From an uncultured Gammaproteobacteria bacterium (lineage in GTDB: Bacteria; Pseudomonadota; Gammaproteobacteria; Steroidobacterales; Steroidobacteraceae), in NCBI GenBank assembly GCA_963795475.1, contig CAWCIE010000012.1, positions 324,710 to 388,709 on the forward strand: a stretch of DNA of 64,000 bases. The letters run 5' to 3'. The translations under genes and the position numbers were made by a program. Under the pieces are notes generated by a model. The model ran no database searches. It was not told where the DNA came from and was given only the letters and a program-made list of their open reading frames with translations. Shown here one piece after another: positions 37,153-58,495 of the stretch. Position 1 is the first letter of the stretch. Every line of letters begins with the position of its first letter.

Positions 37153-37931
37153 GCGGGCTCCTTCTTCGCAGCAGGCGCCGGGGCGCCGACGCGCTTGCGT
37201 AGTTCTATCACCCAGCCGGCGACTTGTTTGTTGTCGCCCGCCAGCGTGAGGTAATGCTCGAATTGCTCGAGCGCCTTTTTCGGCTCGCCGAGGTACAAGT
37301 CGTACAGGACGCCCAGGTTGAAATACGCGGGAGCATAGCCGGGCTCGAGCGCAATGGTACGCTGGTAAGCCGCCTCGGCTTCCGGAAATTTTCCGAGCTT
37401 GCGCTCTACGATGCCGAGCTCATCGTTGGCGACGGCGTCGTCCGGATTTCGCTTCAGCGCCGCGTTGAAGGCTGCCTCCGCGTCCCCGAAGCGCGATGCC
37501 CGCAAATACAGAAGACCCAGGTTTACCTCGGGTCCCGCGTAGTCCGGGTAGGCGAGCGCGAGCTGCTTGAGCTCCAGCTCAGCGTCGGTGTTGCGGCCCG
37601 CCTTCATCAGATTCAACGCCTGCGCATATTGCTGCGCTGCGCGTTCGGGCACCGGCGCGGCAGGCACCGCGGGCTTCGCCCCGGGTGCCGTGGGCACCCC
37701 CGCGGCGCCCGGCGAGCCTGGCGTCCCGGACGTTCCACCCTTGGCGGACCCTGCGGCCGCAGGGGCGCTCGCGCCGGCGGGTCCGGATGCCGCAGCGGGC
37801 GCAGCTGCCGCGGGGGGCGCAGCGGGCGCGGGCCGCGGCGGCGCGCTGTGGCAGCCGGCGATCAACGCCAGCGCCGCGGACGCGCTAACGAATCGAATCG
37901 ACTTGCTGCTCACTGATTTCCACCTTGGCAT
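37149..37931 (-). CDS. TPR lipoprotein with an Ala/Pro-rich linker
   Basis: The lipobox is SAALALIAGC. The linker reads PPRPAPAAPPAAAAPAAASG.... TPR units follow (...AQALNLMKAGRNTDAELELKQLALAYPDYAGPEVNLGLLYL...). The start is ATG 37931 or GTG 37913, and both overlap the 3' end of the upstream gene. Confidence 0.75.
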   Translation of the reverse strand: MPRWKSVSSKSIRFVSASAALALIAGCHSAPPRPAPAAPPAAAAPAAASGPAGASAPAAAGSAKGGTSGTPGSPGAAGVPTAPGAKPAVPAAPVPERAAQQYAQALNLMKAGRNTDAELELKQLALAYPDYAGPEVNLGLLYLRASRFGDAEAAFNAALKRNPDDAVANDELGIVERKLGKFPEAEAAYQRTIALEPGYAPAYFNLGVLYDLYLGEPKKALEQFEHYLTLAGDNKQVAGWVIELRKRVGAPAPAAKKEPA

Positions 37932-42681: not shown

Positions 42682-43359
42682 TCACTCCCAGTCTTTTATG
42701 AGGAACTCTGGTTGATGCTTGACGACCTTGTCGGTGATCTTGAGCTCGAGATACTTGGCGCCCACGCCCTTGTCGAAATTGACGGTGGCGCCCCGCCGGT
42801 AGTCGCGCTCCACGGGGCCCTTGCCCGTGAAGAACGCGACGAGCTCGTGCTTGCCGACTTTGAGGTTGCCGAGATACAGCTGCTGCACGCCGCCTTTCAG
42901 CAGGGCATCGGCCTCGCGCGCGGTGTAGAGGTAATTCTTGACCTCTTTGTTGTCGATCTTGAGGGTGACAGAGTCCAGGGCGAAGAAGGTGCCCACGTCC
43001 ATCGACACGTAAACGGCAACCTGGGTATTTGCCGGGAACAGCAGTTCCTCCTCGAGAACGAACAGGTCCTTGTTGAGATCGATCACGTCCTTCTTCATAC
43101 CCTGCACTTCTTGATCCAGGGTCTTGAAGTCCGAAGCCGAGCCGTCGGCGGGGGTGCCCGGCGCGCCGGCTGCGCCTGCATCGGCGGGGGCGCTTGCGCC
43201 GGCCGAGGCGGCCGGCTGGGCCGGTGCTGCCGCGGATGCAGGGGCTGCGGACGGCGCCGTATCGGCGGAGGCGGCCAGTGCCGATCCGGCGGCATATGCC
43301 CCCCCCGCCAGGAGCAACGCGCAGGCGATGATCGACCCAACTCTAGACTTGAGATTCAT
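42682..43359 (-). CDS. Secreted 225-aa protein of unknown function (Ala/Pro linker plus beta-rich domain)
   Basis: Track ORF trimmed to MNLKSRVGSIIACALLLAGGAYAAGSA (a signal peptide). The domain reads ...VAVYVSMDVGTFFALDSVTLKIDNKEVKNYLYTAREADALLKGGVQQLYLGNLKVGKHELVAFFTGKG.... The next start lies 1 nt after its stop. Confidence 0.7.
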   Translation of the reverse strand: MNLKSRVGSIIACALLLAGGAYAAGSALAASADTAPSAAPASAAAPAQPAASAGASAPADAGAAGAPGTPADGSASDFKTLDQEVQGMKKDVIDLNKDLFVLEEELLFPANTQVAVYVSMDVGTFFALDSVTLKIDNKEVKNYLYTAREADALLKGGVQQLYLGNLKVGKHELVAFFTGKGPVERDYRRGATVNFDKGVGAKYLELKITDKVVKHQPEFLIKDWE

Positions 43360-43373: not shown

Positions 43374-43880
43374 TTACTCGCGAAGCAGCTCGCGTATTTG
43401 TTCGAGGTACATGCGATCGTCGCCGCGCTTGAACCCGACGTGGGAGAAGCGCACCACCCCCGAGCGATCGACCAGAACCGTCATGGGCATTTTCGCCAAT
43501 TGATAATCCCGCCCGATCTCCGAACCCGTATCGAACATGACGGGGTAGGAGACCTTCATCGAGTCGGCGAACTCCTGTGCGCGGCGCAAGTCCTCGTCGA
43601 TGGAAACGCCGAGCACCACCAGGCCGGCGCGCTCGTACGTCGTGTTGATCTTGTCGAGAGCCCGCATTTCGCGGTGGGTGTCGCCCGCCCAGCGCGCCCA
43701 GAAATTCACCAGCACCACCTGGCCGCGAAACTCCGACAGTCGAAGATTGGTGCCGTCGTTCGCCTTCAATACGAAGTCGGGCGCTTCCTTGCCGACCAGG
43801 GACTGCGGCTCCGCGGCGGACGCCGGCAGGTTCCACGAGACGGCGAGCATCGCGCCGCAAAGAATCAGTATGCTACGCAT
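43374..43880 (-). CDS. TlpA-like thioredoxin-fold protein with a signal peptide and the CxxC motif lost
   Basis: The signal peptide is MRSILILCGAMLAVSWNLPASA. The protein is collinear with TlpA/ResA (...APDFVLKANDGTNLRLSEFRGQVVLVNFWARWAGDTHREM...). It reads W-A-G-D-T where the paralog at 54407..54910 has W-C-G-P-C. Confidence 0.8.
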   Translation of the reverse strand: MRSILILCGAMLAVSWNLPASAAEPQSLVGKEAPDFVLKANDGTNLRLSEFRGQVVLVNFWARWAGDTHREMRALDKINTTYERAGLVVLGVSIDEDLRRAQEFADSMKVSYPVMFDTGSEIGRDYQLAKMPMTVLVDRSGVVRFSHVGFKRGDDRMYLEQIRELLRE

Positions 43881-44266
43881 GCAGCCATGCCTTCACCGCA
43901 CCGCTCGCGGGCGAGTCATATGGAAGCCGCTGCCACGACACGGTCGCGAATCAATCACGCTGGTAACCCCGCTGTCCAGGTTCATGTCCTGGGCTCGAAT
44001 TCCCGGGACTGGACCGGAAGCTTTGCGCCCTCGTCTTGCAACGAGTTTGCCCTGATCAGACCTTATGCAAAATCGCACACTGCACGCCGGAGTGTCAACG
44101 CGCGGGGCTTTGCTTTGCGGAGTAATCAGTATGACTTGGCGCACATTCGTGGAAATTTTCCGCCATACGCAATGGCGATCGCATGGGAGAGTCGGAGCTT
44201 CGCGCCGCGTAACGCGTCGCCGCTGTCTCCGCCTTGAGACAGTGTTCGCGCGCCGAAGCGCCGGAG

Positions 44267-44311: not shown

Positions 44312-45977
44312 TCAGCCGGGTACTTTGCCGTTCACCAGGCTCGCGAGCGGGTTGTACATGATGAGCGGATCGAGAACGCGTCGCGCCGGACCCGAGGGTA
44401 TTGTTGGTCGGCGTGTTCGGCCAAAGGTTGGGCCACAAGGAAACAGCCGACGTGCCGTGCAGTGCCATGTAATTGAGCACGACCATCTGCACCAGATTCG
44501 GCACGTTGTTGCCGGCCGGGCTCGAGGTCGTGTTCTGCGAGCCGTCCGGATTGAAGTACCCGAGCTGCAGGCTCATCTCGGGATTGGTTTGTGCGGGCGT
44601 CGGCTTCGCCTTGGGGTCGTAAACCAGGAAGTAGGTGGCCGCGACGTTCTGATTGTCGGCGGTCCACACGCCTTTGCCGCGTCCGCCGACGGAACTGTCG
44701 ATGGTGCCGTCGCTCGCGAGCGAGCCGTCGCTGAATATGTAGATCATCACGGGTTTGCCCTGGATGGCCGCGTACTGAAGCACGGCGCCGATACACTGGC
44801 CGGCGGAGAAATCGCGGGCCTCGCCGGTCGCGCGCTCGCCCGTGTGGTAATCGAAGCCCCCGAGCTCGATGGTGCCGGCGGCGGCATCGCCGTCGACCAC
44901 GAGCTTCATGACGGCGGCGGTCTTCTGGAAATCGCTGCTCCCTTGATATTCCGCCGTCTGGAAGATGCCGCTCGAGCCGACGATATTCGGATCCAAGTCC
45001 GGATCGACCGCCCCGGGGCTCGGATACCGGTTCAGCAGATAGGCCGCCTTGGTGTAGGCGCAAGTCTGGGCCTGGACCGCGGCGGCCTGCAACGCCGCTC
45101 CGTTCGGAATCGAGCTCGCGTAGGCCGACACGCCGGAGTACTTGGCATCGCTGATCCGCTTCATGGATTCGAGCACGTTGGTCACGTCAGTCGTCTGCGT
45201 CTCCGGGTTCGGCGGATTGGGGAGCAATGTGCTCAATTGACCCGTGCTGACGAGCCCGGAAGTATCGGCGCCGCTGTCGATCGTGCTCGGCTGCGCCGCC
45301 ACGTTGATCATGCCGGGAGGCGACATGGAGTTCCCACCCGAAACCGAGCTGTCGGTGCCGATGAGATCGAGCAGCGCTCCGCGCGCGCCCGCCTGCCAGA
45401 TGCCGTACATCGGATTGTGCGGATTGGTGTTGGTGTCGTTCTGCGAGAGCGCGGGAATGATCGTTCCCGTGACCTTGGCGGCCGCGGCGGCGTTGGTGAA
45501 CTTGGTCTTGATGCCGCGCAGCTGCGCGCTGTCGGAATGGTAGCGCAGCCCGAGGGTCGCGTCGACGAAGCTCGCGGCGCTGCTGTTGGGCACCATGGAG
45601 CCCGGCAACCCCAGCTTGCTGTAACCGGCGACGCTCAGGAAGTCGAGCTGGCCGTTCGGACCGCCGACCAGAACGTTCGAGCCGGCGATATTGGCGCCGC
45701 CCGACAGGTCGAAGCAGATGAAGGGAATCATTCCGGCACCCGCCGTGATGCCGCAGGCGGTGACCGCGGTCTGGATGTCGCCAACCAGCGGCGGCTGCGC
45801 CTGCGCAATCCGCGGATTCGCCATCAGGCTGAACACCGAGGGGAGCAGCACCGAGGCGCCGCCTGTCATGAACCCCTGGGCGAGGAACTCACGGCGCGTC
45901 CTCGGCCTCGGATGATCGGGGTGACGAAGCGGCTCATTGCGGCCGAGGCCCTTGGGGATCTTGCGAATAATGCGCAT
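44312..45977 (-). CDS. Tat-exported protein distantly resembling DUF1501; a frame break near the 3' end is inferred
   Basis: - The N-terminus has a twin-arginine signal: MRIIRK...RPRTRREFLAQGFMTGGASVLLP.
- ...IPFICFDLSGGANIAGSNVLVGG and ...IELGGFDYHTGERATG recall the DUF1501 motifs (GGxD... and GGFDTH).
- Track ORF 43893..45977 turns into Arg-rich nonsense after ...NNTLGSG.
- A neighbouring frame reads (A)RRVLDPLIMYNPLASLVNGKVPG* and ends at 44312. Confidence 0.65.
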
Positions 45978-46021
45978 AGTTGAAAACCTCTACGATTCCT
46001 TGGACTTGACTCGGTCGGTAC

Positions 46022-48538
46022 TCAATCGATCATCACGTTGGCGTTGCCGAGCGCCGCGGCGCAGGCCCCGACGGTCACTGCGCTGACGCGCGCCGAATTG
46101 TTGCAGGGAAGACTTCCGCTACAGAGTGTATTCACGAGATTTCCCAGCTCAGTTGTCACCGCCGTGCCCTGGGCGCTCCCGACATTGGCGGTGCCCACCG
46201 CGAGCGCGGTCAGCGGACCTGTGATCGAGGCGGCACCGCTGGGCAGGCTCAAGGTGCTGAAATTGACCCCCGGGAAGATTTTGGCCTGCAGGGTCGAACT
46301 CAGCATCACCTGATTGCAGTACTGAACCGCCAGCTGAGCGACGCCGACCTGATTCGCGGACGAATAGGCCTCGATGGTATTCACCGCCGGCAGCTGTTCT
46401 TGGACGCTTTGATACGTCGTCACCACCGACGCGTTCGAGGTCAGCACCCCGGTGAGCTGCGAGAAGGTCGAATTGACCTGCGCGAAGCTGCGCACGCCGA
46501 AGTCCGCCGCGGGCGGCCCGAGCGCCAGCGTCGCCGGTTGCGGTGTCGCCTCGACGATCACGTCGTGCGCGGTGCCGAGCGTATCGAACTGCAGGAAGAA
46601 CTGATCCGTCAGCGGGCCGTTCTCGAGCGCGATCACCGTGCCGACGGCCGACAGGATGTCGCCCGATGTCGCGGAGTAATTAGCCGCCGTGATCGTGGTG
46701 TTGAGCGGAATGTATGCCTGGCCCACCAGCGGAATCGTTCCGTTGATGCCGATGCGCATGCCGCTCACGGGGATGCTGGTCGGCTTCGCGGTCGAATCCA
46801 GGGAGATGAACGTGGGCTGGTAGAACAGGTAGCTGTAGTTGTCGTACTGGCTCACCGTGAACATCATATAAGCCTGATTGACGTTCACGCCGGGCACGCT
46901 CGAGATGTTGAAGAGCAGGTAATAGCGCTGTCCGACGCCTGCATTGAAGTTCTGCAGCACCTGCGCGGCGGAGAGCGCGCGGCTATGGACCGCGAGGAAC
47001 TTGATCTCGCCCTGGAACGCGTTGTCGCCCGATACCTCGCTGCCGAGAACCAGCGCGAAAGTGCTGTCCCAGTTCGAGATGGTGCCGCCCTTCTGCGGAT
47101 CCGGGATGTTCTGGTTGACGCCGTTTACAAAAATCTGGCGGCCGTTGACCGGATCGTAGGTCAACACCACGTGCTGAAGGGACGCTTGCAGTGCCATGGT
47201 GGCATCCGGGGTCTGCAACTGCGGCGAGCCGTTCAAATTCGAATTGGAGCTGCGCAACGAAAAGTCATAGTCCTGGTTGGTCTGCGCGAGAGTCACGTTG
47301 CGCAGGGTATCGCCGCCCGAATAGCTGACGATGTCGGACAGGTTCGTGGCCACGACCGCGGGGGCAACCCAGGCCTCGATCGAGAACTCGCCGGTCGCCT
47401 GGATGAGCGTGTTCAGCTTGGAGCTCGCTTGTACGGTCGCCTGCGCCTTGCCGCCGCCGGCGAGGAAAATGAGTCCCCAGCTGCCGTCGAACTGGTAGTG
47501 GCCGGTCAGCGTCAGGTCCGCGGAAGGGTCGATGCCGCTGGTGTCGTACGCCATCGTCGAGCCCGCTCCCTCTGAGAACATGTACTTGGCGATGGTGTCG
47601 GCGTCGTAACGATTGGCGCCGCTGGCCACCGTGCCGTCCGTCAAGTGGAGGGCCTTGCTGACGACCAGGTTTGGATCGAGGCTGGTCGGCGTCGCCATCT
47701 TCGCGTAGGCCTGAATCTGGGCAAGCATGAGCCCCGCATCCACGGAACACGTGCTCCAGCAATTGTGCAGATCGGTGGCGAGCCGCTGATAGAAGCGCGA
47801 ATTCGTGCCGCAAGCGCCCGGACCGCTCCCGGCGACGAACGGTAAGCAGCCCGTGAAGTCGATTTTAGGGATCGCTGCCTGGTACGCAGTGACGATGTTC
47901 GGGTCCGCGAAGTACGGTGTTTGCGCGTTGGCCGGGCTCGCTTGCGAGCTATGACACTTGGAACACCACTGGCTGGTGATGTTGTTGTAGATCGTCGTCT
48001 GATACGCGGCCTGGGCCGCGCCGGTGGATGAGAAGTTCAAGCTCTGTCCCGCCGATTGCACCGGCGGAGCCACCAGCTGGACCTGCGTCGCCGATGCGGC
48101 GCCCGTGGCATTCGCCCAGTTGCTGATCCACGTGGTCAAGATCTGGCCGCAGGCGCTCGGATCGGCGAGCCAGCAGTTGTGCCCGCCGCTCACCTTCACC
48201 ACCATTTCGGAGGTGGAGGGCTGCGCGAGGTTGACCACCGTATTGGCCTGCGCGTAGGCGAGGTTCACATTGTCGCTGCGCGCGAAGTTCGGCATCTGCG
48301 CCGGCGTCGTCGCGTTGTGGCACTGACCGCAGCGGTTCTGGGTACGGATGTTGTTCCAGAGGTTGACTTCGAAGGCCTGCACGTCCGCCGTCGCCGGCGC
48401 GGGTCCCGTATAGGCGTCGGCGCTGCTGGTGGGAGCGACCGTGGGCAACGCAGAGTTGCCGGCGCCGCCGCCGCCGCAGGCGGCGAGGCCCAACGAGGCC
48501 GCGAGAATCATCATCCCGAGTAATTGTTTGGCGTTCAT
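46022..48538 (-). CDS. Lipoprotein with two CxxCH motifs (planctomycete-cytochrome-like) and a central LamG/ConA-like domain
   Basis: The N-terminus is MNAKQLLGMMILAASLGLAAC (a lipobox). The motifs are NRCGQCHNATTPAQMPNFA and WCSKCHSSQ. The LamG-like region reads ...GEFSIEAWVAP...HVVLTYDPVNGRQIFVNGV...FQGEIKFLAVHSRALSAAQV. The ATG lies 2 nt after the upstream stop. Confidence 0.75.
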   Translation of the reverse strand: MNAKQLLGMMILAASLGLAACGGGGAGNSALPTVAPTSSADAYTGPAPATADVQAFEVNLWNNIRTQNRCGQCHNATTPAQMPNFARSDNVNLAYAQANTVVNLAQPSTSEMVVKVSGGHNCWLADPSACGQILTTWISNWANATGAASATQVQLVAPPVQSAGQSLNFSSTGAAQAAYQTTIYNNITSQWCSKCHSSQASPANAQTPYFADPNIVTAYQAAIPKIDFTGCLPFVAGSGPGACGTNSRFYQRLATDLHNCWSTCSVDAGLMLAQIQAYAKMATPTSLDPNLVVSKALHLTDGTVASGANRYDADTIAKYMFSEGAGSTMAYDTSGIDPSADLTLTGHYQFDGSWGLIFLAGGGKAQATVQASSKLNTLIQATGEFSIEAWVAPAVVATNLSDIVSYSGGDTLRNVTLAQTNQDYDFSLRSSNSNLNGSPQLQTPDATMALQASLQHVVLTYDPVNGRQIFVNGVNQNIPDPQKGGTISNWDSTFALVLGSEVSGDNAFQGEIKFLAVHSRALSAAQVLQNFNAGVGQRYYLLFNISSVPGVNVNQAYMMFTVSQYDNYSYLFYQPTFISLDSTAKPTSIPVSGMRIGINGTIPLVGQAYIPLNTTITAANYSATSGDILSAVGTVIALENGPLTDQFFLQFDTLGTAHDVIVEATPQPATLALGPPAADFGVRSFAQVNSTFSQLTGVLTSNASVVTTYQSVQEQLPAVNTIEAYSSANQVGVAQLAVQYCNQVMLSSTLQAKIFPGVNFSTLSLPSGAASITGPLTALAVGTANVGSAQGTAVTTELGNLVNTLCSGSLPCNNSARVSAVTVGACAAALGNANVMID

Positions 48539-48540
48539 GA

Positions 48541-49824
48541 TCAATTTCCCATGCAATACGCGGCGGCGGCGGCGAAGACCTGCCGCAACGAGTAGTTGCT
48601 CGATTGGAATGTCTGGACCAGCGTGTTGATTTCGTTCGCGTCGCTCGTGGCGTAGCCACTCGCGGCGCCGTTATTGGCGGAAGCCGGCGCGCGGAAGCAG
48701 ACCGTCTTGAAGACTCTCGTCACCTGACAGGTGTTGAACGCCGCGGTGCTCTCGAGCTCCTGGCCGAGAGACTTGGCCCCGCTCCCGGAGCCAGGGAGCG
48801 ATGGGCTCCAGCCGAGCACCTGATTCGGCCCCGTACGCCAGCGGTTGTTCCAGCTGTCATCCGGGGTGTTGAACCCTTGGGGGAAATTGGTGTTGTTGAT
48901 GTGGTATTTCGGCTGCGTCTGGCCGGCGGTGTACACGATCTGGCCGATGGGCCACGCCGTCGCACCGATCTCGCTCGCCGGGTACGAGAAGTTGTAGTAC
49001 GCGAACGCCTGAGCCATCGGGTCCATGCCGCTATGGCAGCCGATGCAGTTGGTCAAGAACAAGGTGCTGACGCCGCCCGGGCTCCTCGTCACATCCTGGC
49101 GGATGCGGTCGGGGGGCCGGGTGGTGTCCATCACCGTGGGCAGGTCGTTGCACAAGTGATTGATCATGGTGAAGCGGAACATCGCGCGGTTCGTACCGTT
49201 CACGAAGAACGCGCTGGCGGCGCCGCGGGTGGTCAGCACGCCGGCGGTGGCGGTCGAAGGGATGCCGGTGACCGAGGATTGAGTGGTTTGCTTCAAGTGC
49301 AAGCTCAGATCGACGTTATTGTCGTCGAGCGTCTGATACATGTTGTTGTTATCCGGTGAATAGGCACCCTCTCCGGAGGTCCCGTCGCCGACGAAAAGAA
49401 TGTCGGCGCTGAGGATGGTATTGAACGGGATGTCGTGCTGAACCATTCCGATCACGGTGGCGGTGTAGTCGTTCAACGGCACGAACACCGACTGATCGCG
49501 GTTGGTCCAGGGCGCCGCCATGTTGCGGATGGTGTCGTTGAGGAACTTGGGATCGTTGGTCGCGATGAGCGCGGCAGCCACCGGCGACTGTCCCACCATT
49601 TGCGCCAGCTCGGCCGCGGTGGGCGGTATGCCCGCGATGCGGTTGTAGATGCGCGCCGCCTGACTGGCGTTGACGACCTGTGCGTCCGCGTTGGCACCGA
49701 ACAATGCCAGCGCGCCGGCGCATGCAGTCGCGGCGAGTGCGAGCTTGACGAGGCGCGGCATCGCCGTGCAGCGGTTGATATCGCTCATTGAATTTTCCAT
49801 CCCGTACTTCATGTTCACATCCAC
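48541..49824 (-). CDS. Secreted DUF1588/DUF1585-like protein with one CxxCH motif
   Basis: The signal peptide is ...MPRLVKLALAATACAGALALFGANADA, and the likely start is 49761 or 49788. ...FLTNCIGCHSGMDPMAQAFAYYNF matches the C..CH..DP signature I remember from DUF1585-type planctomycete proteins. Confidence 0.65.
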   Translation of the reverse strand: MDVNMKYGMENSMSDINRCTAMPRLVKLALAATACAGALALFGANADAQVVNASQAARIYNRIAGIPPTAAELAQMVGQSPVAAALIATNDPKFLNDTIRNMAAPWTNRDQSVFVPLNDYTATVIGMVQHDIPFNTILSADILFVGDGTSGEGAYSPDNNNMYQTLDDNNVDLSLHLKQTTQSSVTGIPSTATAGVLTTRGAASAFFVNGTNRAMFRFTMINHLCNDLPTVMDTTRPPDRIRQDVTRSPGGVSTLFLTNCIGCHSGMDPMAQAFAYYNFSYPASEIGATAWPIGQIVYTAGQTQPKYHINNTNFPQGFNTPDDSWNNRWRTGPNQVLGWSPSLPGSGSGAKSLGQELESTAAFNTCQVTRVFKTVCFRAPASANNGAASGYATSDANEINTLVQTFQSSNYSLRQVFAAAAAYCMGN

Positions 49825-50134
49825 TTGCGCGAGTTGTGATTTGGACCGGCGCCAATATAAGCATCAAGCAAGTCCGCAAATAATGTCTCATCCGAACAAC
49901 GTCGGTGTTTCGCGACAGTACCGACCGCCAACTACGCACCCTTATCCTGAGCCGCGATTTGCGAGACTTCGCTCCGAATTGTTCAAGGAAAACGGATGTG
50001 GCGAAGTTCTTCTGTGAGTGCGTTAACAGATTGCACATGCACACCCGATCGAAGATGCAGTTATGAGATCATTAAGTTCAATGACTCGAAACTCACCTGC
50101 ATCCGGGTCTCGGGAGCAAGGGTAGGTATTCGAC
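49825..50134. promoter_or_regulatory. 310-bp comparatively AT-rich divergent intergenic region
   Basis: It separates the two divergently transcribed CxxCH-protein operons. No credible ORF is present. GC is visibly lower than the flanks (for example AATATAAGCATCAAGCAAG and TTATGAGATCATTAAGTTCAATGAC). Confidence 0.5.
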
Positions 50135-52966
50135 ATGAACAAATTTCGCCTTCGTGACTCACGTCACGGTCTCTCGGAGCTTCGCCGAATCATCCGGGCT
50201 GCGTCCCTCGCATTGCCCGCCGCGTTGCTGTTCGCCTGCAGCAGCGCGCCGACCGGGAACGCTCCCGGCGTTGCGGGCGGTCAATCATTGACGCCCGGCA
50301 TCACCAACTACCCGATGGGCTATATCAAGCAGCCGGTACTCGCGGTGAACACCGACAAGCAGAACAAGGCGGCGACTCCGACCGACATCAACGTCGAGGA
50401 CCTCATCACCTCCATCACCGGGAGCGACCTCTACGTGCGCGAGACTGCAAGCGCCTCGAGCCCGGAGGTGAACGTCACCTTCCCGATCACCGGCGGGAAG
50501 GGCGCCGTGCGCGATCTCGACGTGTCGCCGGACGGCACGAAGATCGTGTTCTCGTTGCGCCTGCCGCTTGATCCCACGCTCAAGAACACCGACCCCAAGC
50601 AGCCGAACTGGAAGATCTACCAGTACGATGCGAAGGCCAAGACGGTGACCCAGCTCACCAACGACAGCATCACCAGCGGCCACGACGTGGGCGCCCACTA
50701 TCTGCCGGACGGGCGGATCGTGTTCGCCTCCACGCGCCAGCTCGCGACCCAGGCCATCCTGCTCGACGAGGGCCGTCCCCAGTACCAGGCCGTGACCACC
50801 AATCAGCAGCAGGCGATATTTCTATTGCATGTCATGAACGGCGACGGCTCGAACATGCATCAGATATCGTTCAACACCAATCACGACTTCGCGCCCTCGG
50901 TGCTCGCGAACGGGCAGATCGTGTTCTCGCGCTGGGAGGTGACCAACGGCCAGGACCAGATCAGCCTGTACGTGACCAACCCGGACGGCACGGGCCTGCA
51001 GCTTTACTATGGTGCGAACAGCCACGCCACCGGCGCCAACATCGCGGGTACCAACAATAACGTGATTCAGTTCCTAGGTGCGCGGCAGCGCGCCGACGGG
51101 AAGCTGCTCTCGATCGTCCGGCCCGTGCTGGGAACCCAGCTCGGCGGCGATATAGAGCTGATCGACGCGTCCAACTTCGTGGAAATCAACCAGCCGAGCT
51201 CGCCGACGACGGCCACGGGCGCATCCGGAACCGCGCCGGCCGCGGTGGGGCAAACGGAGGCGACCACGCTCGGCGTGACCACGGACGCCAACATGCCGTC
51301 CGCGGGCGGGCGCTTCTACTCTCTTTATCCGCTGTACGACGGCACCAACCGGATGCTGGTGAGCTGGGCACCCTGCTTGATCCAGACCACCACCGGTACC
51401 ACCGAAGTCTGCAACAGCTCCAATACGACCGGCGCCAACGTGACCCAGGCTCCGCCGCAGTACACGGTCTGGATCTATGACTTCAGCGCCGGCACCTTGA
51501 GTCCGCTGCTCTCGGCGGAGCAGGGCATGGAAGTGGTCGAGGCGGTGGTCTTGCAGGCGCGAACACCCTTGCCGACGTACATCCCGGACTTCATTCCGAC
51601 CACCCCTGCCCAGGAGGCCTTGGTCAACGGTCAGGTCGGCATTCTGAATATCTCGAGCGTGTACGATTACGATGGGATCGATACGGCGAAGCCGGACATC
51701 GCCACCCAGGCGAACCCGGCGCAGGCGAGCTTCTACGCCCGGCCCGCGCGCTTCGTGCGCATCGAAAAAGCGGTCGAAATCCCGCCGAAGACGGTGCGCA
51801 AGCTCGATCAGGCCGATTTTGGGCCCGCCGGCATGGGCATGCGGGAGATCTTGGGCTATGCGCCGGTCCAGCCGGACGGCTCGGTCCAGATTCAGGTGCC
51901 CGCGGAGGTTCCGTTCGTCATCGATGTTCTCGACTTGAATGGCCGGCGTATCACGGCGCAGCACACGAGCTGGATGCAGGTCATGCCGGGCGAGACCAAG
52001 AGCTGCAACGGCTGCCACACGGCCGGCAACCTGAAGACCCCCTCGCACGGGCGCAGCGGCTTGACGGTCGCAGTCAACCAGGGTGCACCGACCACCGGGG
52101 AACCCTTCCCCGGCACCTACAGCGCCTTGTTCGCCAACGCCGGCGAGACCATGGCACAAACGCTCGAGCGCATCAGCTGCGAAACCGGCAGCGCGCTCGC
52201 CGGCCTGCCCGTGCCTTACACTCAGCCCTGCTCGCAAATTCTCGCCACGGATGTGATCTACGCGCCGATCTGGACCGATACCGTCACCACGCCGCAGGCG
52301 GACGTGCTGAATGTGGTCGCGGGAGCGAACGTCTTCAGCTACCCCTATGGTGGCACCTCCGGCATCCCGAGCACGCCTCCCACCAACGGGAGCTGCGCAC
52401 CTTGGAGCGCGCAGTGCCGTATCACCATCCATTACGCGAACCCGGCCTCGAACCCGACGCAGCTTTACATCCAAAATTTGTGGAACGATACGTCGCGGGT
52501 CGCCACGGTGAACGGCGTCGCCAATACTTCGATCACCTGCACGCTCTGTCACAACCCGCTCAGCGCGCAGAATAAGGTCCAAGTACCTGCCGGGCAGCTC
52601 GACTTGACCGGCGTCGCGTCGAGCGGGGCCACAGGCGACAATGACGTGACCCACGTGCAATCGTACGAAGAAGTCTTGTTTTCTCATGACGAACTCACGC
52701 TTAATATGGGCGTGCTGCAGGATTTGACGGTCACCGACCCGGGCCCGCCGCCGACGCAGGTGCCGGTGATGCTGGCGGCGCCGATGGCGGCCGGCGATGC
52801 GGCGGCATCGACTGCCTTCTTGCGAATATTCGATGGGAGCTTCCATGACCCAGTGCTCGATCACACGGGGTTCTTGACGATCGGGGAGATGCGGTTGATC
52901 TCGGAATGGTTGGACATCGGCGGCCAGTACTACAACGATCCGTTCGTCGCCCCGGCTGCGAACTGA
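50135..52966 (+). CDS. 943-aa lipoprotein: PD40/TolB-like propeller plus hydrazine-synthase-alpha-middle-like domain, two CxxCH motifs
   Basis: The lipobox is ALLFAC followed by S. PD40-like repeats include DVSPDGTKIVFS, YLPDGRIVFAS and LANGQIVFSRW. ...ILGYAPVQPDGSVQIQVPAEVPFVIDVLDLNGRRI...WMQVMPGETKSCNGCHT matches the HZS_alpha-type domain as I remember it. The second motif is ITCTLCHNP. Confidence 0.7.
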   Translation: MNKFRLRDSRHGLSELRRIIRAASLALPAALLFACSSAPTGNAPGVAGGQSLTPGITNYPMGYIKQPVLAVNTDKQNKAATPTDINVEDLITSITGSDLYVRETASASSPEVNVTFPITGGKGAVRDLDVSPDGTKIVFSLRLPLDPTLKNTDPKQPNWKIYQYDAKAKTVTQLTNDSITSGHDVGAHYLPDGRIVFASTRQLATQAILLDEGRPQYQAVTTNQQQAIFLLHVMNGDGSNMHQISFNTNHDFAPSVLANGQIVFSRWEVTNGQDQISLYVTNPDGTGLQLYYGANSHATGANIAGTNNNVIQFLGARQRADGKLLSIVRPVLGTQLGGDIELIDASNFVEINQPSSPTTATGASGTAPAAVGQTEATTLGVTTDANMPSAGGRFYSLYPLYDGTNRMLVSWAPCLIQTTTGTTEVCNSSNTTGANVTQAPPQYTVWIYDFSAGTLSPLLSAEQGMEVVEAVVLQARTPLPTYIPDFIPTTPAQEALVNGQVGILNISSVYDYDGIDTAKPDIATQANPAQASFYARPARFVRIEKAVEIPPKTVRKLDQADFGPAGMGMREILGYAPVQPDGSVQIQVPAEVPFVIDVLDLNGRRITAQHTSWMQVMPGETKSCNGCHTAGNLKTPSHGRSGLTVAVNQGAPTTGEPFPGTYSALFANAGETMAQTLERISCETGSALAGLPVPYTQPCSQILATDVIYAPIWTDTVTTPQADVLNVVAGANVFSYPYGGTSGIPSTPPTNGSCAPWSAQCRITIHYANPASNPTQLYIQNLWNDTSRVATVNGVANTSITCTLCHNPLSAQNKVQVPAGQLDLTGVASSGATGDNDVTHVQSYEEVLFSHDELTLNMGVLQDLTVTDPGPPPTQVPVMLAAPMAAGDAAASTAFLRIFDGSFHDPVLDHTGFLTIGEMRLISEWLDIGGQYYNDPFVAPAAN

Positions 52967-53020: not shown

Positions 53021-53728
53021 TTGCAGGCGTTGCACCTAGGTGTCGCGGAGGCCGCGAAACGTCCGTTATTGCAGCTGGTGGTGACGGCGCCGTACCTCGA
53101 GATGCACTCGGGACCGGGGCGCGGATTCCCGGTGGTGTACGTGATCGGCCGGGACGAGATCGTCACGGTGCTCTACAGCAGGACCGACTGGTACAAGGTG
53201 CGCGCGCCGCAGGGCGCGGAAGGCTGGGCGCGGCGGCAGGATCTCGCGACCACGAAGCTGGCCGACGGCGAACCGGCACCGATACCGCCCTACCCCGATT
53301 TCGCCAGCCATCGCTGGGAGGTGGGCGCGGGATACGGTGTGTACAACCGGCAGAATTTGGTGACCGCGTATGGCGATTTCGGACTCACGGACAGCATCGA
53401 TGTCGAGGCGGTGCTGCAACAGGCGCTCGGCACGCTCGATAACCGCGTCATCGCGACCATCGGTCTGCGCCACACCTTCATTCCGGAATGGAAATGGTTT
53501 TCGCCCACGGCCGGCCTCGGCACGGGCTATCAGCACATCGTCGACAAGGTGCCGCCGGCCCCCTTGGAGAGCAACAACGAGATGGCCTACGTGTCCCTTG
53601 GCGCCCGCGGCTTCATCACCCGCCGCTTCATGTGGCGCGCCGACTGGCGTCACTACGTGGTCTTCAACAACTTGAACGTATACGAGGATCTAGAAGAATG
53701 GAAAGTCGGCTTTGCAGTGTTCTTTTAG
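53021..53728 (+). CDS. SH3b domain fused to a small outer-membrane beta-barrel (start unresolved)
   Basis: The SH3-like region is ...YLEMHSGPGRGFPVVYVIGRDEIVTVLYSRTDWYKVRAPQGAEGWARRQDL. The barrel ends ...WKVGFAVFF. A good signal peptide (MRR-VLLGLILLLQALHLGVAEA) appears only if ATG 52990 is joined to this frame by a 1-nt shift. Confidence 0.65.
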   Translation: MQALHLGVAEAAKRPLLQLVVTAPYLEMHSGPGRGFPVVYVIGRDEIVTVLYSRTDWYKVRAPQGAEGWARRQDLATTKLADGEPAPIPPYPDFASHRWEVGAGYGVYNRQNLVTAYGDFGLTDSIDVEAVLQQALGTLDNRVIATIGLRHTFIPEWKWFSPTAGLGTGYQHIVDKVPPAPLESNNEMAYVSLGARGFITRRFMWRADWRHYVVFNNLNVYEDLEEWKVGFAVFF

Positions 53729-54369
53729 CGGCGGCTCTGCTGTCCGGCTGCGGCTGGTTCCATCGAGGGGACAAGAAGCCCGTTCAGGTGTCCGCCGAGG
53801 ATCCCGGAGCGGAGCCCACCATCGTGGAACCGCAGGTCACGCGGCGCGAGGTGAAGACCCCCAAGATCAAGGCCAAGGACTTCGAGATGGGAGCGTACTT
53901 CGGGGCGCTCAGCATCGAGGATTTCGGCACCAATCCGGTCTATGGCATCCGGGCGGCCTACCATGTCACCGAGGATTTCTTCCTCGAGGGTTTTCTGGCG
54001 CGGGCGAAGGCCGGGCAGAGCAGCCTCGAAGAGGTGTTCCCGGAGATCACGGTGCTCAGCAACTCTGGGAGACAGTTCACGTACTACGATTTGGACGTGG
54101 GCTACAACATCCTGCCCGGAGAGGTGTTTCTGGGAAGGGGACGGGCCTTCAATACGGCGCTCTACGTCACGGCCGGCATGGGTGACGTGAAATTCGCGGA
54201 CCAGGATCAGTTCGCGCTGAATTTCGGCGTGGGCACGCGGATTTTGATCACCGATTGGCTCGCGCTGCATTTGGACGTGAGGGACCACGTGTTCGAGTCC
54301 AGCCTGTTCGGAGTCGACAAGAACGTACACAACATAGAAGGGACCGTGGGGTTGACGACGTTTTTCTGA
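53698..54369 (+). CDS. Small outer-membrane beta-barrel lipoprotein
   Basis: Track ORF trimmed to MESRLCSVLLAAALLSGC (a lipobox). It has alternating beta-strand patterning and the C-terminus ...NIEGTVGLTTFF. Confidence 0.7.
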   Translation: MESRLCSVLLAAALLSGCGWFHRGDKKPVQVSAEDPGAEPTIVEPQVTRREVKTPKIKAKDFEMGAYFGALSIEDFGTNPVYGIRAAYHVTEDFFLEGFLARAKAGQSSLEEVFPEITVLSNSGRQFTYYDLDVGYNILPGEVFLGRGRAFNTALYVTAGMGDVKFADQDQFALNFGVGTRILITDWLALHLDVRDHVFESSLFGVDKNVHNIEGTVGLTTFF

Positions 54370-54406
54370 GTTGTCTCTGTCAATGGACCAGTATCAGGAG
54401 ATTTTC

Positions 54407-54910
54407 ATGCATAGCTCCAAAGCAAAGTTCCTCACTCGCTGCGCGATGACGGCCATCGTCGCCGCCTCCGCAGCCTTCGCCGGCGATGCCGCCGGCCCCG
54501 CGCCGGCGTTCACGCTGTCCGAGCTCGACGGCAGCCAGGGCGCGCTCGCGCAGTACAAAGGTCAAGTCGTGATGGTGAATTTCTGGGCGACCTGGTGCGG
54601 TCCCTGCCAGCAGGAAATGCCGCTCCTCGACCAGATGTACAGGAAGTACAAGCCCGCCGGATTCACGCTGATCGGGGTAAACGTCGACAAGGAGGCGCCG
54701 CCGGTGAAGGCGCTCCTCGAGCGCAAGCCCGTGAGCTTCCCCGTGATGCTCGATCCCGCGAATCAGGTGTCGAAGGCCTACCACGTGGACGAGATGCCGA
54801 GCTCGGTGATCATCGACCGCAAGGGCGAGATCCGCTACATCCATCGCGGCTACAAGCCGGGCGACGAGAACGAATACCAGGATCGCATTCGCCAGTTGAT
54901 TCGGGAGTAG
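54407..54910 (+). CDS. TlpA/ResA-family periplasmic thiol:disulfide oxidoreductase (canonical CxxC)
   Basis: The signal peptide is MHSSKAKFLTRCAMTAIVAASAAFA. The active site reads ...GQVVMVNFWATWCGPCQQEMPLL. Confidence 0.85.
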   Translation: MHSSKAKFLTRCAMTAIVAASAAFAGDAAGPAPAFTLSELDGSQGALAQYKGQVVMVNFWATWCGPCQQEMPLLDQMYRKYKPAGFTLIGVNVDKEAPPVKALLERKPVSFPVMLDPANQVSKAYHVDEMPSSVIIDRKGEIRYIHRGYKPGDENEYQDRIRQLIRE

Positions 54911-54912
54911 CC

Positions 54913-55158
54913 ATGCCGTCCCTCCGCCGTTCCATCCAATGGGCGGGCGCCGCCCTCATCGCAGGCTCCGGGCTCCTGAGCTCCGCCTGCACCATCCAGC
55001 CCTGGGTGAAGCCGTATGAGCGGGACCGCCTTGCCGATCCCATCATGGCCTGGGATCGCGACGCCATCTCTTCCGCCTACCTGGATCACATCCGCGAGTC
55101 CCGCGAGGGTTCGCGGGGCGCCAGCGGAAGCGCGGGCGGCGGTTGCGGCTGCAATTGA
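54913..55158 (+). CDS. DUF4266 small lipoprotein
   Basis: The N-terminus is MPSLRRSIQWAGAALIAGSGLLSSAC (a lipobox). It continues ...QPWVKPYERDRLADPIMAWDRD.... The C-terminal GGGCGCN is the DUF4266 signature as I remember it. Confidence 0.75.
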   Translation: MPSLRRSIQWAGAALIAGSGLLSSACTIQPWVKPYERDRLADPIMAWDRDAISSAYLDHIRESREGSRGASGSAGGGCGCN

Positions 55159-58486: not shown

Positions 58487-58495
58487 GACGCTACC

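What the first reader, a model, noticed from the sequence alone, without database searches (positions are those of the whole stretch)
44312..49824. Three-gene operon of exported proteins with planctomycete-type CxxCH modules, a LamG domain and a Tat-exported DUF1501-like partner
The operon lies on the minus strand and is tightly packed, with the first two genes separated by 2 nt.
- Gene 1 is a secreted protein with ...NCIGCHSGMDPMAQAF..., resembling DUF1585/DUF1588.
- Gene 2 is an 838-aa lipoprotein with CGQCH and CSKCH plus a LamG-like core.
- Gene 3 is a twin-arginine protein with GGxN.../GGFDYH motifs reminiscent of DUF1501.

From memory, pairing of a PSCyt/PSD-type protein with a Tat-exported DUF1501-type protein is well known in Planctomycetes and Verrucomicrobia, and its function is still unassigned. 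Here a three-component variant sits in a proteobacterial-looking chromosome, next to a Ton-like motor and thiol-oxidoreductases.
Basis: partly seen in the sequence, partly recalled or inferred. Interest (0 to 1): 0.7.

Follow-up and report, generated by a model that had tools for sequence, protein, structure and literature searches.

The report
Diverged heme-protein / Tat-enzyme operon
Three tightly packed genes for exported proteins (a one-heme protein, a two-heme lipoprotein with a lectin-like domain, and a Tat-exported enzyme-like protein) form a very widespread, unnamed gammaproteobacterial relative of the planctomycete "PSCyt + DUF1501" gene pairs, whose function nobody knows.

Summary
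The operon is real. It lies on the minus strand: g1 48541-49761, g2 46022-48538 and g3 44312-45977. There are 2 nt between g1 and g2.

g3 carries a +1-nt frameshift about 24 codons before its stop. This is probably an assembly error.

- **Conservation:** The order g1-g2-g3 is kept wherever enough flank was held among 80 loci from different gammaproteobacterial species. All three CxxCH motifs are invariant.
- **g1:** It is a remote homolog of planctomycete PSCyt3/PSD2 (DUF1588/DUF1585) proteins.
- **g2:** It is a lipoprotein with two generic "CxxCH...HNCW...C" heme modules, a Laminin_G_3 domain and an unnamed C-terminal domain. It is not PSCyt-type.
- **g3:** It is a Tat protein of a family with no Pfam or NCBIfam model. 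The family is distantly related to DUF1501 (hhalign 86%), and its fold resemblance to alkaline phosphatases is weak.
- **Distant lineages:** The same parts occur there as a four-gene operon in which the g2 domains are split.

Function remains unknown. A periplasmic heme/metalloenzyme complex is the best guess. I rate it a new variant of a known kind, of moderate interest.

The parts
48541..49761 (-). g1: exported one-heme protein, a compact PSCyt3/PSD2 (DUF1588/DUF1585)-like protein. The ORF extends to GTG 49824. The likely start is ATG 49761 or 49788.
49033..49047 (-). g1 CIGCH heme-attachment motif (aa 239-243), inside the invariant stretch NCIGCHSGMDPMAQAF.
   Evidence: C239, C242 and H243 are 100% conserved in 66 sequences. 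The motif is also present in 6 distant g1-like proteins.
46022..48538 (-). g2: 838-aa lipoprotein with two heme modules, a Laminin_G_3 domain and a C-terminal domain.
48476..48487 (-). g2 lipobox LAAC (Cys21).
   Evidence: C21 is 100% conserved in 66 sequences.
48170..48331 (-). g2 heme module 1: CGQCH (48317-48331) through HNCW (48170-48181). C130 follows downstream, just outside these coordinates.
   Evidence: C70, C73, H74, H120, C122 and C130 are 100% conserved.
47756..47965 (-). g2 heme module 2: CSKCH (47951-47965) through HNCW (47756-47767). C264 follows downstream, just outside these coordinates.
   Evidence: C192, C195, H196, H258, C260 and C264 are 100% conserved. The same module is the N-terminus of separate proteins in distant operons, E 1e-18 to 1e-21.
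46958..47434 (-). g2 Laminin_G_3 (LamG/concanavalin-like) domain, aa 369-527.
   Evidence: Pfam E 5.5e-17. Found in 43 of 43 orthologs. The closest solved relatives are sialidase lectin domains, E 0.0012.
46025..46606 (-). g2 C-terminal domain (about aa 645-838), with no Pfam model. It is a separate small lipoprotein gene in distant operons.
   Evidence: hmmsearch of the g2 profile, positions about 643-815, gives E 1e-8 to 1e-35 in L203-L208. C741 and C826 are invariant.
44312..45977 (-). g3: Tat-exported protein of about 554 aa from an unnamed family distantly related to DUF1501. In the window it is interrupted by a +1-nt frameshift.
44378..44390 (-). Approximate site of the 1-nt insertion that shifts the g3 frame 24 codons before its stop.
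   Evidence: Three-frame reading and alignment to L003. Homolog C-termini are shown.
45882..45899 (-). g3 twin-arginine motif TRREFL. It is preceded by a conserved N-region (H22, P25).
   Evidence: R28 and R29 are invariant in 66 diverse members. Some members give Tat-signal Pfam/NCBIfam hits.
44652..44861 (-). g3 conserved core motifs: GGFDYH (44844-44861), FSDGS (44721-44735) and TADN (44652-44663).
   Evidence: D376, Y377, H378, D417, G418 and D441 are invariant. They align to GGFDTH, SEFG and DHG of DUF1501. They sit at the C-terminal ends of predicted beta strands.
49762..50134 (.). Divergent intergenic region between g1 and the HzsA-like gene. It holds a conserved inverted repeat, TCTGTGAGTGCGTTAACAGA, at 50011-50030.
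   Evidence: Alignment of 14 related intergenic regions, with blocks conserved at 80% or more.
50135..52966 (+). Divergently transcribed HzsA-related lipoprotein: PD40 propeller, HZS_alpha middle domain, and two CxxCH motifs at 52004-52018 and 52538-52552. It is a conserved neighbour in this clade only.
   Evidence: Pfam HZS_alpha E 3.3e-18. Present in every gammaproteobacterial locus with enough flank. Absent near the distant operons.
53021..54369 (+). SH3-domain gene (53021-53728) and OMP beta-barrel gene (about 53700-54369). They are conserved neighbours downstream of the HzsA-like gene.
   Evidence: Pfam. Synteny.
43958..44060 (-). c-di-GMP-I-GGC-type riboswitch aptamer in the gap after g3. 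It marks the start of a separate downstream unit (Trx-like, lipoprotein, TPR proteins, ExbB/ExbD/TonB).
   Evidence: Rfam RF03167, 56.2 bits (gathering score 59), E 1.6e-11. Above the gathering score at the same place in L004 and L027.

Best explanation
g1-g2-g3 is a strongly diverged, unnamed gammaproteobacterial version of the planctomycete/verrucomicrobial module in which a cytochrome-like PSCyt/PSD protein is paired with a Tat-exported DUF1501-type protein.

Shown:
- g1 is a Sec-exported one-CxxCH protein homologous to the PSCyt3-PSD2 part of such proteins.
- g2 is a lipoprotein with two CxxCH...HNCW...C modules, a LamG domain and a C-terminal domain.
- g3 is a Tat substrate of a family of about 1,300 clusters with no Pfam or NCBIfam model, remotely related to DUF1501.
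- The three genes, or their split parts, travel together across deep divergence.

Inferred:
- The three proteins form one periplasmic complex, tethered to a membrane by g2's lipid anchor. The Gly at position +2 suggests the outer membrane.
- g3 is the catalytic metalloenzyme. Its acidic and His residues sit at beta-strand ends, as in the alkaline-phosphatase superfamily, and it folds or takes up its cofactor before Tat export.
- The three c-type hemes of g1 and g2 carry electrons to or from g3.
- The LamG domain holds a glycan or protein substrate.
- In this clade the divergent HzsA-like di-heme lipoprotein, and perhaps the nearby Redoxin-DUF4266-DUF3570 set, would connect the complex to other extracytoplasmic electron carriers.

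The substrate is unknown.
For: - **Synteny:** g1-g2-g3 is in the same order in every one of 80 loci from different species that holds enough flank. These include cultured Microbulbifer and Gilvimarinus.
- **Distant operons:** Six distant loci (27-36% identity) carry g1-like, g2-C-terminal-domain-like, g3-like and g2-heme-module genes in one operon.
- **Conserved residues:** All CxxCH, HxC...C and lipobox Cys residues are 100% conserved.
- **g1 homology:** PSD2 hits in 38 of 43 orthologs and PSCyt3 hits in 18 of 43. The Microbulbifer ortholog scores 26.1 bits against a cut-off of 25.8 and is named a DUF1585 protein. hhalign gives 89% over 228 columns and 82% against Pfam-confirmed PSCyt3/PSD partners that sit directly upstream of Pfam-confirmed DUF1501 genes.
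- **g3 homology:** hhalign against 45 confirmed DUF1501 proteins gives 86%, E 5e-6. The match is collinear from the RR motif through GG(N), GGFD[YT]H, S[DE]xG and D[NH]G.
- **g3 fold:** The AF2 model has pLDDT 87. Its 50 best PDB matches are all alkaline-phosphatase-superfamily enzymes.
- **Tat export:** The Tat motif is invariant.
- **Literature:** The PSCyt+DUF1501 module is described with a Tat signal, Laminin_G_3 inserts and a proposed electron-transfer role (PMC3542564; PMC5615132).
Against: - No profile-profile probability reaches 90%, and the window's own g1 and g3 pass no Pfam cut-off.
- The Foldseek matches are weak: best E 0.008, TM 0.1-0.3, none at E <= 0.001.
- The DUF1501 alignment was collected through the GGFDTHANQ motif. 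This inflates the weight of that motif.
- g3 lacks DUF1501's invariant R352 and H364 equivalents, reading SDGS and DN instead of SEFGRR and DHG.
- No redox enzyme is known in the alkaline-phosphatase superfamily (my own knowledge).
- Heme binding by PSCyt-type or g2-type modules has never been shown.
- g3 is frameshifted in this window.
- Complex formation and electron flow are pure inference.
Confidence: 0.6

Rival explanations
1. The triad is not an autonomous enzyme. It would be the periplasmic part of a larger envelope-spanning machine that also includes the HzsA-like lipoprotein, the SH3/OMP barrels, the Redoxin-DUF4266-DUF3570 electron-transfer set, and the riboswitch-controlled Trx-like/TPR/ExbB-ExbD-TonB motor cluster.
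For: - HzsA-like, SH3 and OMP genes sit divergently next to g1 in every gammaproteobacterial locus with enough flank.
- The Trx-like-lipoprotein-TPR-TPR-ExbB cluster follows g3 in most loci.
- Redoxin, DUF4266 and DUF3570 lie beyond the OMP genes. They are a known flavinylation-associated system (PMC8238504).
- ApbE follows g3 in Microbulbifer and a few other loci.
Against: - The motor cluster is absent from the 8-kb flank in at least a dozen loci with full flank, for example L047, L049, L050, L058, L060 and L064.
- A riboswitch and a gap of about 430 nt separate the motor cluster from g3.
- Six distant operons keep the g1, g2-part and g3 genes but have no HzsA-like, SH3, OMP or Trx-like neighbours.
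- ApbE is absent from the 64-kb window.
Confidence: 0.25
2. g3 is a plain hydrolase or transferase of the alkaline-phosphatase superfamily (phosphatase-, sulfatase- or phosphoethanolamine-transferase-like). g1 and g2 would be binding or scaffold proteins, with CxxCH motifs that are structural or bind metal rather than carry electrons.
For: - The best structural matches are alkaline phosphatases, sulfatases, phosphoglycerate mutases, MCR-1 and NPP.
- The LamG domain resembles sialidase lectin modules.
- All known members of that superfamily are non-redox enzymes (my own knowledge).
- Heme binding is untested.
Against: - Three CxxCH motifs are invariant, each with a conserved downstream His (H120, H258) or Met (M246). 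Weak but recurrent cytochrome c profile hits occur in 35 of 43 g2 orthologs.
- The neighbours are heme, thioredoxin-fold and flavinylated proteins.
- No sulfatase or phosphatase Pfam model matches any of 66 members.
Confidence: 0.2
3. In this particular genome the system is decaying. The g3 frameshift is genuine and the operon is a pseudogenised remnant.
For: - There is a 1-nt insertion relative to all homologs, giving a tail of about 140 aa that looks like nonsense.
- The neighbouring Trx-like protein has lost its CxxC motif.
Against: - Only the last 24 codons are affected.
- A 99%-identical protein from another assembly (P0008) carries a different frameshift. This is typical of long-read indel errors.
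- g1, g2 and the rest of g3 are intact and 87-99% identical to intact homologs.
- Loss of the CxxC is shared by the whole Steroidobacteraceae-like clade, so it is not recent decay.
Confidence: 0.1
4. g3 is a type II secretion protein, GspF, as NCBI names some family members.
For: Two GenBank MAG proteins in g3-family clusters are named 'general secretion pathway protein GspF'.
Against: - No T2SS or other Pfam or NCBIfam model matches any of 66 members.
- The protein has a Tat signal and a soluble alpha/beta fold rather than a polytopic membrane fold.
- No T2SS genes are nearby.
Confidence: 0.01

Closest known systems
PSCyt/PSD protein + DUF1501 module of Planctomycetes, Verrucomicrobia and Lentisphaerae (Kamneva et al. 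2012, PMC3542564; Studholme 2004 domains)
   Same: - An exported CxxCH protein lies directly upstream of a twin-arginine protein.
- A Laminin_G_3 domain is present in the module.
- g3 shares collinear motifs with DUF1501 (RR, GG-N, GGFD-x-H, S-D/E-x-G, D-N/H-G).
- g1 aligns to PSCyt3/PSD partners of genuine DUF1501 genes.
- The function is unknown in both.
   Different: - No Pfam DUF1501 match in 66 members.
- The SEFGRR and GTDHG signatures are replaced.
- g3 is about 120 aa longer.
- A third gene (g2) lies between the partners. Its heme modules are not PSCyt-type.
- The host is Gammaproteobacteria, and only one locus per genome appears among the 80 listed. In PVC genomes the modules are described as duplicated many times (PMC3542564).
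- In this clade there is a fixed association with an HzsA-like gene and outer-membrane protein genes.
PSCyt3/PSD2-5 (DUF1588/1585/1587/1592/1595) proteins with their neighbouring unknown family
   Same: - g1 shows the PSCyt3-then-PSD2 order with the CxxCH in PSCyt3.
- A Tat-type partner lies downstream.
   Different: - g1 has only about 400 aa and lacks the N-terminal PSD domains.
- No DUF1552 match for any g3 member.
- I could not fetch DUF1552 sequences for a profile-profile test.
DUF1800 + DUF1501 pairs (common in the DUF1501 metagenomic loci fetched here)
   Same: - A helical partner gene of about 500 aa lies directly upstream of a Tat DUF1501 gene.
- There is a weak local similarity between the PSD2-like end of g1 and a DUF1800 segment.
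   Different: - DUF1800 has no CxxCH motif.
- The similarity to g1 is not significant (17% probability).
Alkaline-phosphatase superfamily enzymes (alkaline phosphatase, sulfatases, cofactor-independent phosphoglycerate mutase, MCR-1)
   Same: - They are the only structural matches of the g3 model.
- Conserved Asp and His residues sit at the C-terminal ends of parallel strands.
   Different: - The matches are weak (TM 0.1-0.3).
- There is no sequence-profile match.
- No nucleophile motif can be assigned.
- A heme-protein partner is unknown for this superfamily.
Hydrazine synthase alpha subunit relatives (HzsA-related proteins)
   Same: The divergent neighbour has a propeller, the HZS_alpha middle domain and two CxxCH motifs.
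   Different: - It is only a neighbour, not part of the triad.
- Non-anammox homologs have no known function and lack the key residues (PMC12758564).

Membership tests
Pfam PSD2 (DUF1585) / PSCyt3 (DUF1588), tested on g1 | Score above the Pfam gathering cut-off. | tested here: inconclusive
   The window g1 hits only PSCyt3, at 12.6 bits against a cut-off of 27, and has no PSD2 hit at E <= 0.1. The Microbulbifer ortholog hits PSD2 at 26.1 against 25.8. At E <= 0.1, 38 of 43 orthologs hit PSD2 and 18 of 43 hit PSCyt3.
Pfam PSD2 (DUF1585) / PSCyt3 (DUF1588), tested on g1 | A CxxCH motif inside the PSCyt3 region, followed by PSD2 at the C-terminus. | tested here: met
   The PSCyt3 hit covers the CxxCH (aa 238-262) and PSD2 covers aa 337-395 in L046. 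The CxxCH is invariant.
Pfam PSD2 (DUF1585) / PSCyt3 (DUF1588), tested on g1 | Profile-profile homology to bona fide members. | tested here: inconclusive
   hhalign gives 89% (228 columns) against L134 and 82% against L130. Both are Pfam-confirmed PSCyt3/PSD proteins. Both values are below the usual 95% comfort level.
Pfam DUF1501 (PF07394), tested on g3 | Match to the Pfam model. | tested here: not met
   0 of 66 diverse family members match at E <= 1. The window protein has no hit.
Pfam DUF1501 (PF07394), tested on g3 | Twin-arginine signal peptide. | tested here: met
   TRREFL is present, and R28 and R29 are invariant.
Pfam DUF1501 (PF07394), tested on g3 | Signature motifs GGND, RSHF, GGFDTH, SEFGRR and GTDHG. 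These are the invariant columns of 45 confirmed members. | tested here: not met
   Only GGFD-x-H and the acidic residues of the last two motifs are kept. g3 reads GGAN, GGFDYH, FSDGS and TADN. The R352 and H364 equivalents are absent.
Pfam DUF1501 (PF07394), tested on g3 | Profile-profile homology (superfamily level). | tested here: inconclusive
   hhalign of A3 against A7 gives 86%, E 5e-6. The firm core is 74 columns, extending collinearly to 405 columns at low stringency.
Pfam DUF1501 (PF07394), tested on g3 | A cytochrome-like or DUF1800 partner gene directly upstream. | tested here: met
   A g1-like gene lies in the same operon in all 80 + 6 loci with enough flank. Here g2, or its C-terminal domain gene, is interposed.
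Pfam DUF1552, tested on g3 | Match to the Pfam model. | tested here: not met
   0 of 66 members match. No profile-profile test was possible because no DUF1552 sequences were at hand.
PSCyt1 / PSCyt2 / PSD1, tested on g2 | Match to the Pfam models. | tested here: not met
   0 of 43 g2 orthologs match at E <= 0.1.
Laminin_G_3 (PF13385), tested on g2 | Match above the cut-off. | tested here: met
   62.7 bits against a cut-off of 27.6. 43 of 43 orthologs match.
c-type cytochrome, tested on g1 and g2 | A conserved CxxCH motif in an exported protein. | tested here: met
   All three motifs are invariant in 66 sequences. A Sec signal and a lipobox are present.
c-type cytochrome, tested on g1 and g2 | Covalently bound heme. 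| not testable with these tools
   This needs heme staining or mass spectrometry.
Alkaline-phosphatase superfamily fold, tested on g3 | Significant structural similarity of the core. | tested here: inconclusive
   All top-50 Foldseek PDB hits belong to the superfamily. However, the best E is 0.008 and TM is 0.1-0.3. No AlphaFold DB library was available.
T2SS GspF, tested on g3 | T2SSF domain and a polytopic membrane protein. | tested here: not met
   There is no such Pfam or NCBIfam hit. The model is a soluble alpha/beta fold.

The most novel reading that the evidence does not exclude
The triad would be the catalytic core of a previously unrecognised extracytoplasmic redox machine of aerobic Gammaproteobacteria. 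In it, a Tat-exported member of the alkaline-phosphatase/DUF1501 superfamily acts as a redox enzyme, which would be unprecedented for that fold. Three c-type hemes would wire it to an HzsA-like di-heme lipoprotein, outer-membrane barrels and the flavinylated DUF3570/thioredoxin-like chain. A second-messenger riboswitch and a TonB-like motor cluster would coordinate it. Because only one locus per genome appears among those listed, and cultured hosts such as Microbulbifer carry it, it would also reveal what the massively duplicated PSCyt-DUF1501 modules of Planctomycetes do.
Probability: 0.15. Interest if true: 0.85.

Novelty: new variant of a known kind. Interest (0 to 1): 0.55.

Why it matters
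PSCyt/PSD + DUF1501-type modules have been known since 2004-2012. They are among the most expanded gene sets in Planctomycetes and Verrucomicrobia, and their function is still unknown. Their many paralogs and poorly tractable hosts make them hard to study.

This finding shows a diverged relative in at least about 590 gammaproteobacterial species, and only one locus per genome appears among the 80 listed. The g3 family has roughly 1,300 clusters at 50% identity. Cultured genera such as Microbulbifer and Gilvimarinus carry it.

The finding also defines three families or domains with no Pfam or NCBIfam model:
- the g3 family;
- the CxxCH...HNCW...C heme module;
- the g2 C-terminal domain.

Their fusion and fission pattern is strong evidence that the parts work together. 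If the redox-complex reading is right, it offers a practical genetic and biochemical entry to a long-standing unknown.

Tried and rejected
- **AF2 on a shallow alignment:** The first AF2 run on g3 used 19 sequences and failed, with pLDDT 34. I repeated it with 66 diverse sequences.
- **Locus search with A3:** I redid it with A4.
- **PDB sequence searches:** Searches with g1, g2, g3 and DUF1501 profiles found no meaningful relatives, apart from weak sialidase-lectin hits for the LamG domain.
- **Plasmid search:** tblastn of g3 against plasmids gave only noise.
- **g1 against g2:** hhalign shows no relationship beyond the CxxCH motif, at 2%. So g1 and g2 are not duplicates.
- **g1 against DUF1800:** hhalign gives 17%, which is not significant.
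- **Promoters and terminators:** The sigma-70 and terminator scan found nothing above shuffled expectation and no clear terminator after g3.
- **NCBIfam:** No model matches g1 or g3.
- **GspF naming:** I rejected it as misannotation.
- **ApbE in the window:** None was found by tblastn.
- **Literature:** Searches for DUF1585/1588/1552/1592 found no functional study of these families. A search for the riboswitch variant listed three papers, each mentioning it once; I did not read them.

Full report
**1. What is in the sequence**

The minus strand between 44312 and 49824 holds three consecutive genes.

- **g1:** The ORF is 48541-49824. The likely start is ATG 49761 or 49788. It has a Sec-type signal peptide ending ANADA|Q and one CxxCH motif (CIGCH, 49033-49047) inside NCIGCHSGMDPMAQAF.
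- **g2:** It spans 46022-48538 and encodes 838 aa. It starts 2 nt after the g1 stop (TGA-TC-ATG). It has a lipobox (LAAC, Cys21) and two CxxCH motifs (CGQCH and CSKCH), each followed 50-62 residues later by HNCW and a further Cys. It also has a Laminin_G_3 domain (Pfam E 5.5e-17).
- **g3:** It starts 44 nt after g2, at 45977. It carries the Tat motif TRREFL and the motifs FDLSGG, NDTNTNPHNP, GGFDYH, FSDGS and TADN.

The window has no intact g3 ORF ending at 44312. The frame runs on to 43893 with a nonsense-like tail. Homologs end ...VLDPLIMYNPLASLVNGKVPG. That sequence is the +1 frame of the window, ending at TGA 44312. Alignment to locus L003 shows one extra base near 44378-44390.

A 99%-identical protein from another assembly (P0008) has a different frameshift. 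I therefore read these as assembly indels rather than gene decay, though I cannot prove it.

**2. Organism and abundance**

The window has 61-69% G+C. The closest homologs come from soil and peat metagenome-assembled genomes named Steroidobacteraceae.

Each of the three proteins has thousands of clusters at 90% identity. A profile of g3 finds 1,324 clusters at 50% identity among 1.84 billion representatives at E <= 0.001, and 932 at E <= 1e-10. This is a mid-sized family that does not merge with the DUF1501 family.

The best 80 are all Gammaproteobacteria. They include Steroidobacteraceae, Nevskiaceae, Chromatiaceae, Sedimenticola, Cellvibrionaceae, Oleiphilaceae, and cultured Microbulbifer flavimaris, M. 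harenosus and Gilvimarinus algae.

**3. Co-occurrence**

In every one of those loci with enough flank, g1, g2 and g3 are adjacent in the same order, down to about 40-50% identity. In this clade a further block is equally constant on the other strand: an HzsA-related lipoprotein, an SH3-domain gene and an OMP beta-barrel gene.

Downstream of g3, most loci carry a thioredoxin-fold gene, a very conserved lipoprotein of about 220 aa, two large TPR proteins and ExbB/ExbD/TonB-like genes. At least a dozen loci with full flank lack these within 8 kb.

Beyond the OMP genes lie Redoxin, DUF4266 and DUF3570. This is the flavinylation-associated set described by Meheust et al. 2021 (PMC8238504). ApbE follows g3 in Microbulbifer and a few other loci but is not in this window.

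**4. Deep conservation and domain fission**

Six distant g3-family members have 27-36% identity and come from loci with 34-53% G+C. They sit in four-gene operons, made up of:

- a g1-like protein (E 1e-92 to 1e-110 against the g1 profile, with the CxxCH kept);
- a lipoprotein of about 215-260 aa that matches only the C-terminal domain of g2 (E 1e-8 to 1e-35);
- the g3-like gene;
- a protein of about 290-1,375 aa whose N-terminus is the g2 heme module (E 1e-18 to 1e-21). This fourth gene is seen in five of the six loci, because the L206 contig ends just after g3.

None of these loci has the HzsA-like, SH3, OMP or Trx-like neighbours.

g2 of the window is therefore a fusion of heme modules, LamG and the C-terminal domain. 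The true conserved core is g1 + g2 parts + g3. Fusion and fission of this kind is strong evidence that the parts act together.

**5. What the proteins are**

*g1.* The window protein has only a sub-threshold PSCyt3 hit. Among 43 diverse orthologs, 38 hit PSD2/DUF1585, 18 hit PSCyt3/DUF1588 and 3 hit PSCyt2.

The Microbulbifer ortholog passes the PSD2 cut-off, and RefSeq names it a DUF1585 domain-containing protein. In metagenomic loci fetched through a DUF1501 motif, three Pfam-confirmed DUF1501 genes are directly preceded by proteins with PSCyt3, PSD4 and PSD2 domains. The g1 profile aligns to two of them with hhalign probabilities of 89% (228 columns) and 82%.

*g2.* Laminin_G_3 is present in 43 of 43 orthologs. 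The heme modules give only weak generic cytochrome c hits, and none to PSCyt or PSD. The lipobox Cys, both CxxCH motifs, H120/C122/C130 and H258/C260/C264 are invariant. The LamG profile is nearest to sialidase lectin domains in the PDB, at E 0.0012. g1 and g2 are not related to each other.

*g3.* No Pfam or NCBIfam model matches any of 66 diverse members, apart from Tat-signal models. An AlphaFold2 model built on those 66 sequences is confident, with pLDDT 87. Its PDB matches are weak (best E 0.008, TM 0.1-0.3), but all 50 listed are alkaline-phosphatase-superfamily enzymes.

Against 45 Pfam-confirmed DUF1501 proteins, hhalign gives 86% and E 5e-6 over the helix-strand-GGFD[YT]H-helix-strand-S[DE]xG core. 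At low stringency the alignment is collinear from the RR motif to the C-terminus.

Several DUF1501 signature residues are absent (SEFGRR becomes FSDGS, and DHG becomes DN). The invariant Asp and His residues of g3 sit at the C-terminal ends of predicted parallel strands, where such folds place their active sites.

**6. Comparison with what is known**

Kamneva et al. 2012 (PMC3542564) described modules of DUF1501 with PSCyt1/PSCyt2/PSD1 proteins. These have Tat motifs and sometimes Laminin_G_3 domains. The authors proposed an electron-transport role, and the function is unknown.

He et al. 2017 (PMC5615132) noted that PSCyt2 and PSCyt3 genes each sit next to a different unknown family. The present operon works like these modules in its layout. 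It fails the membership tests for DUF1501, DUF1552 and PSCyt1/2/PSD1, and only borders on membership for PSD2/PSCyt3. I therefore file it as a new variant of that kind, not as a member.

**7. Mechanism**

The shown parts are export routes, conserved heme-attachment motifs, remote homologies and obligatory co-occurrence.

The inferred parts are as follows. The proteins form a periplasmic complex tethered by g2's lipid anchor. g3 is the catalytic metalloenzyme. The three hemes shuttle electrons. LamG binds the substrate.

The main rivals are that the triad is only a piece of a larger envelope machine, or that g3 is a non-redox hydrolase.

**8. Boundary of the unit**

The gap of about 430 nt after g3 contains a c-di-GMP-I-GGC-type riboswitch aptamer at 43958-44060, with 56.2 bits and E 1.6e-11. 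The same element scores above its gathering cut-off at the same place in L004 and L027. The downstream Trx-like/TPR/ExbBD cluster therefore has its own leader, and g1-g3 is a separate unit.

The divergent region upstream of g1 holds a conserved inverted repeat at 50011-50030.

**9. Verdict**

The finding is a widespread, unnamed variant of a known but functionally unsolved system, present in cultured bacteria. I rate it of moderate interest.

Noticed in passing
window 43958-44060 (-); L004 9940-10020; L027 10008-10092: A c-di-GMP-I-GGC variant riboswitch aptamer (Rfam RF03167) sits between g3 and the Trx-like/lipoprotein/TPR/ExbB-ExbD-TonB cluster. It scores 56.2 bits in the window, just under the gathering score of 59, and 62.7 and 65.1 bits in two related loci. 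I believe the ligand of this variant class is not established.
   Followed up: partly
window 43374-43880 (-): The ResA/TlpA-like thioredoxin-fold protein downstream of g3 has lost its CxxC. It reads WARWAGDTH here and WARWAGDSR in the Steroidobacteraceae-like clade. More distant loci keep WxSWCGxC. It is a redox-dead thioredoxin fold conserved across a clade.
   Followed up: partly
window 42682-43341 (-): A lipoprotein-like protein of about 219 aa has an Ala/Pro-rich linker, and its conserved C-terminal domain has no Pfam model. It is the most conserved protein of the whole region: 95% identity in the nearest locus (above every other gene there) and still 51-56% in Microbulbifer.
   Followed up: no
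window 50135-52966 (+): The HzsA-related lipoprotein has invariant C624/C627/H628, C802/C805/H806, H638, H910 and two further invariant Cys pairs (C414 and C426; C754 and C761) in 61 sequences. Non-anammox HzsA homologs have no known function (PMC12758564).
   Followed up: partly
window 54371-56363 (+): Redoxin (54371-54910), DUF4266 (about 54907-55158) and DUF3570 (55143-56363) form the flavinylation-associated DsbD/DUF3570 set of Meheust et al. 2021. tblastn finds no ApbE anywhere in the 64-kb window.
   Followed up: partly
window 50011-50030: A conserved inverted repeat, TCTGTGAGTGCGTTAACAGA (TCTGT-N10-ACAGA), lies in the divergent intergenic region between g1 and the HzsA-like gene. It is kept in at least 80% of 14 related loci and is a candidate operator. 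Other conserved blocks lie nearby.
   Followed up: partly
proteins P0532, P0534 (g3 family): GenBank names two g3-family MAG proteins 'general secretion pathway protein GspF'. No profile or fold evidence supports this, so it is probably a propagated misannotation.
   Followed up: yes
g3, aa 1-30 (window 45888-45977): The N-region of the Tat signal is unusually conserved (…EPLRHxDHPRPxTRREFL, with H22 and P25 invariant or nearly so across 66 diverse members). This may reflect a dedicated Tat chaperone.
   Followed up: no
L050 9745-9848 and 15055-15218: The Gilvimarinus algae locus has two TwoAYGGAY RNA matches flanking the region downstream of g3.
   Followed up: no
L083-L202 (metagenome loci): Most DUF1501 genes carrying GGFDTHANQ are preceded by a DUF1800 protein. 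Three are preceded by PSCyt3/PSD4/PSD2 proteins, so PSCyt3-type proteins also pair with DUF1501. L120 also has a Laminin_G_3 gene that matches the g2 LamG region at E 8e-38.
   Followed up: partly
window 33713-38024 (-): A TonB-like gene, ExbD, ExbB, a 223-aa protein with no family match, and a 291-aa TPR protein follow the two large TPR genes. Related loci have two ExbD genes. The function of this motor cluster is unknown.
   Followed up: no
window 57215-63232: Unrelated genes lie at the far end of the window: a GDPD phosphodiesterase (57215-58180, -), a Ser/Thr kinase with TPR repeats (59501-61834, +) and a Ysc84-domain protein (62399-63232, +).
   Followed up: no
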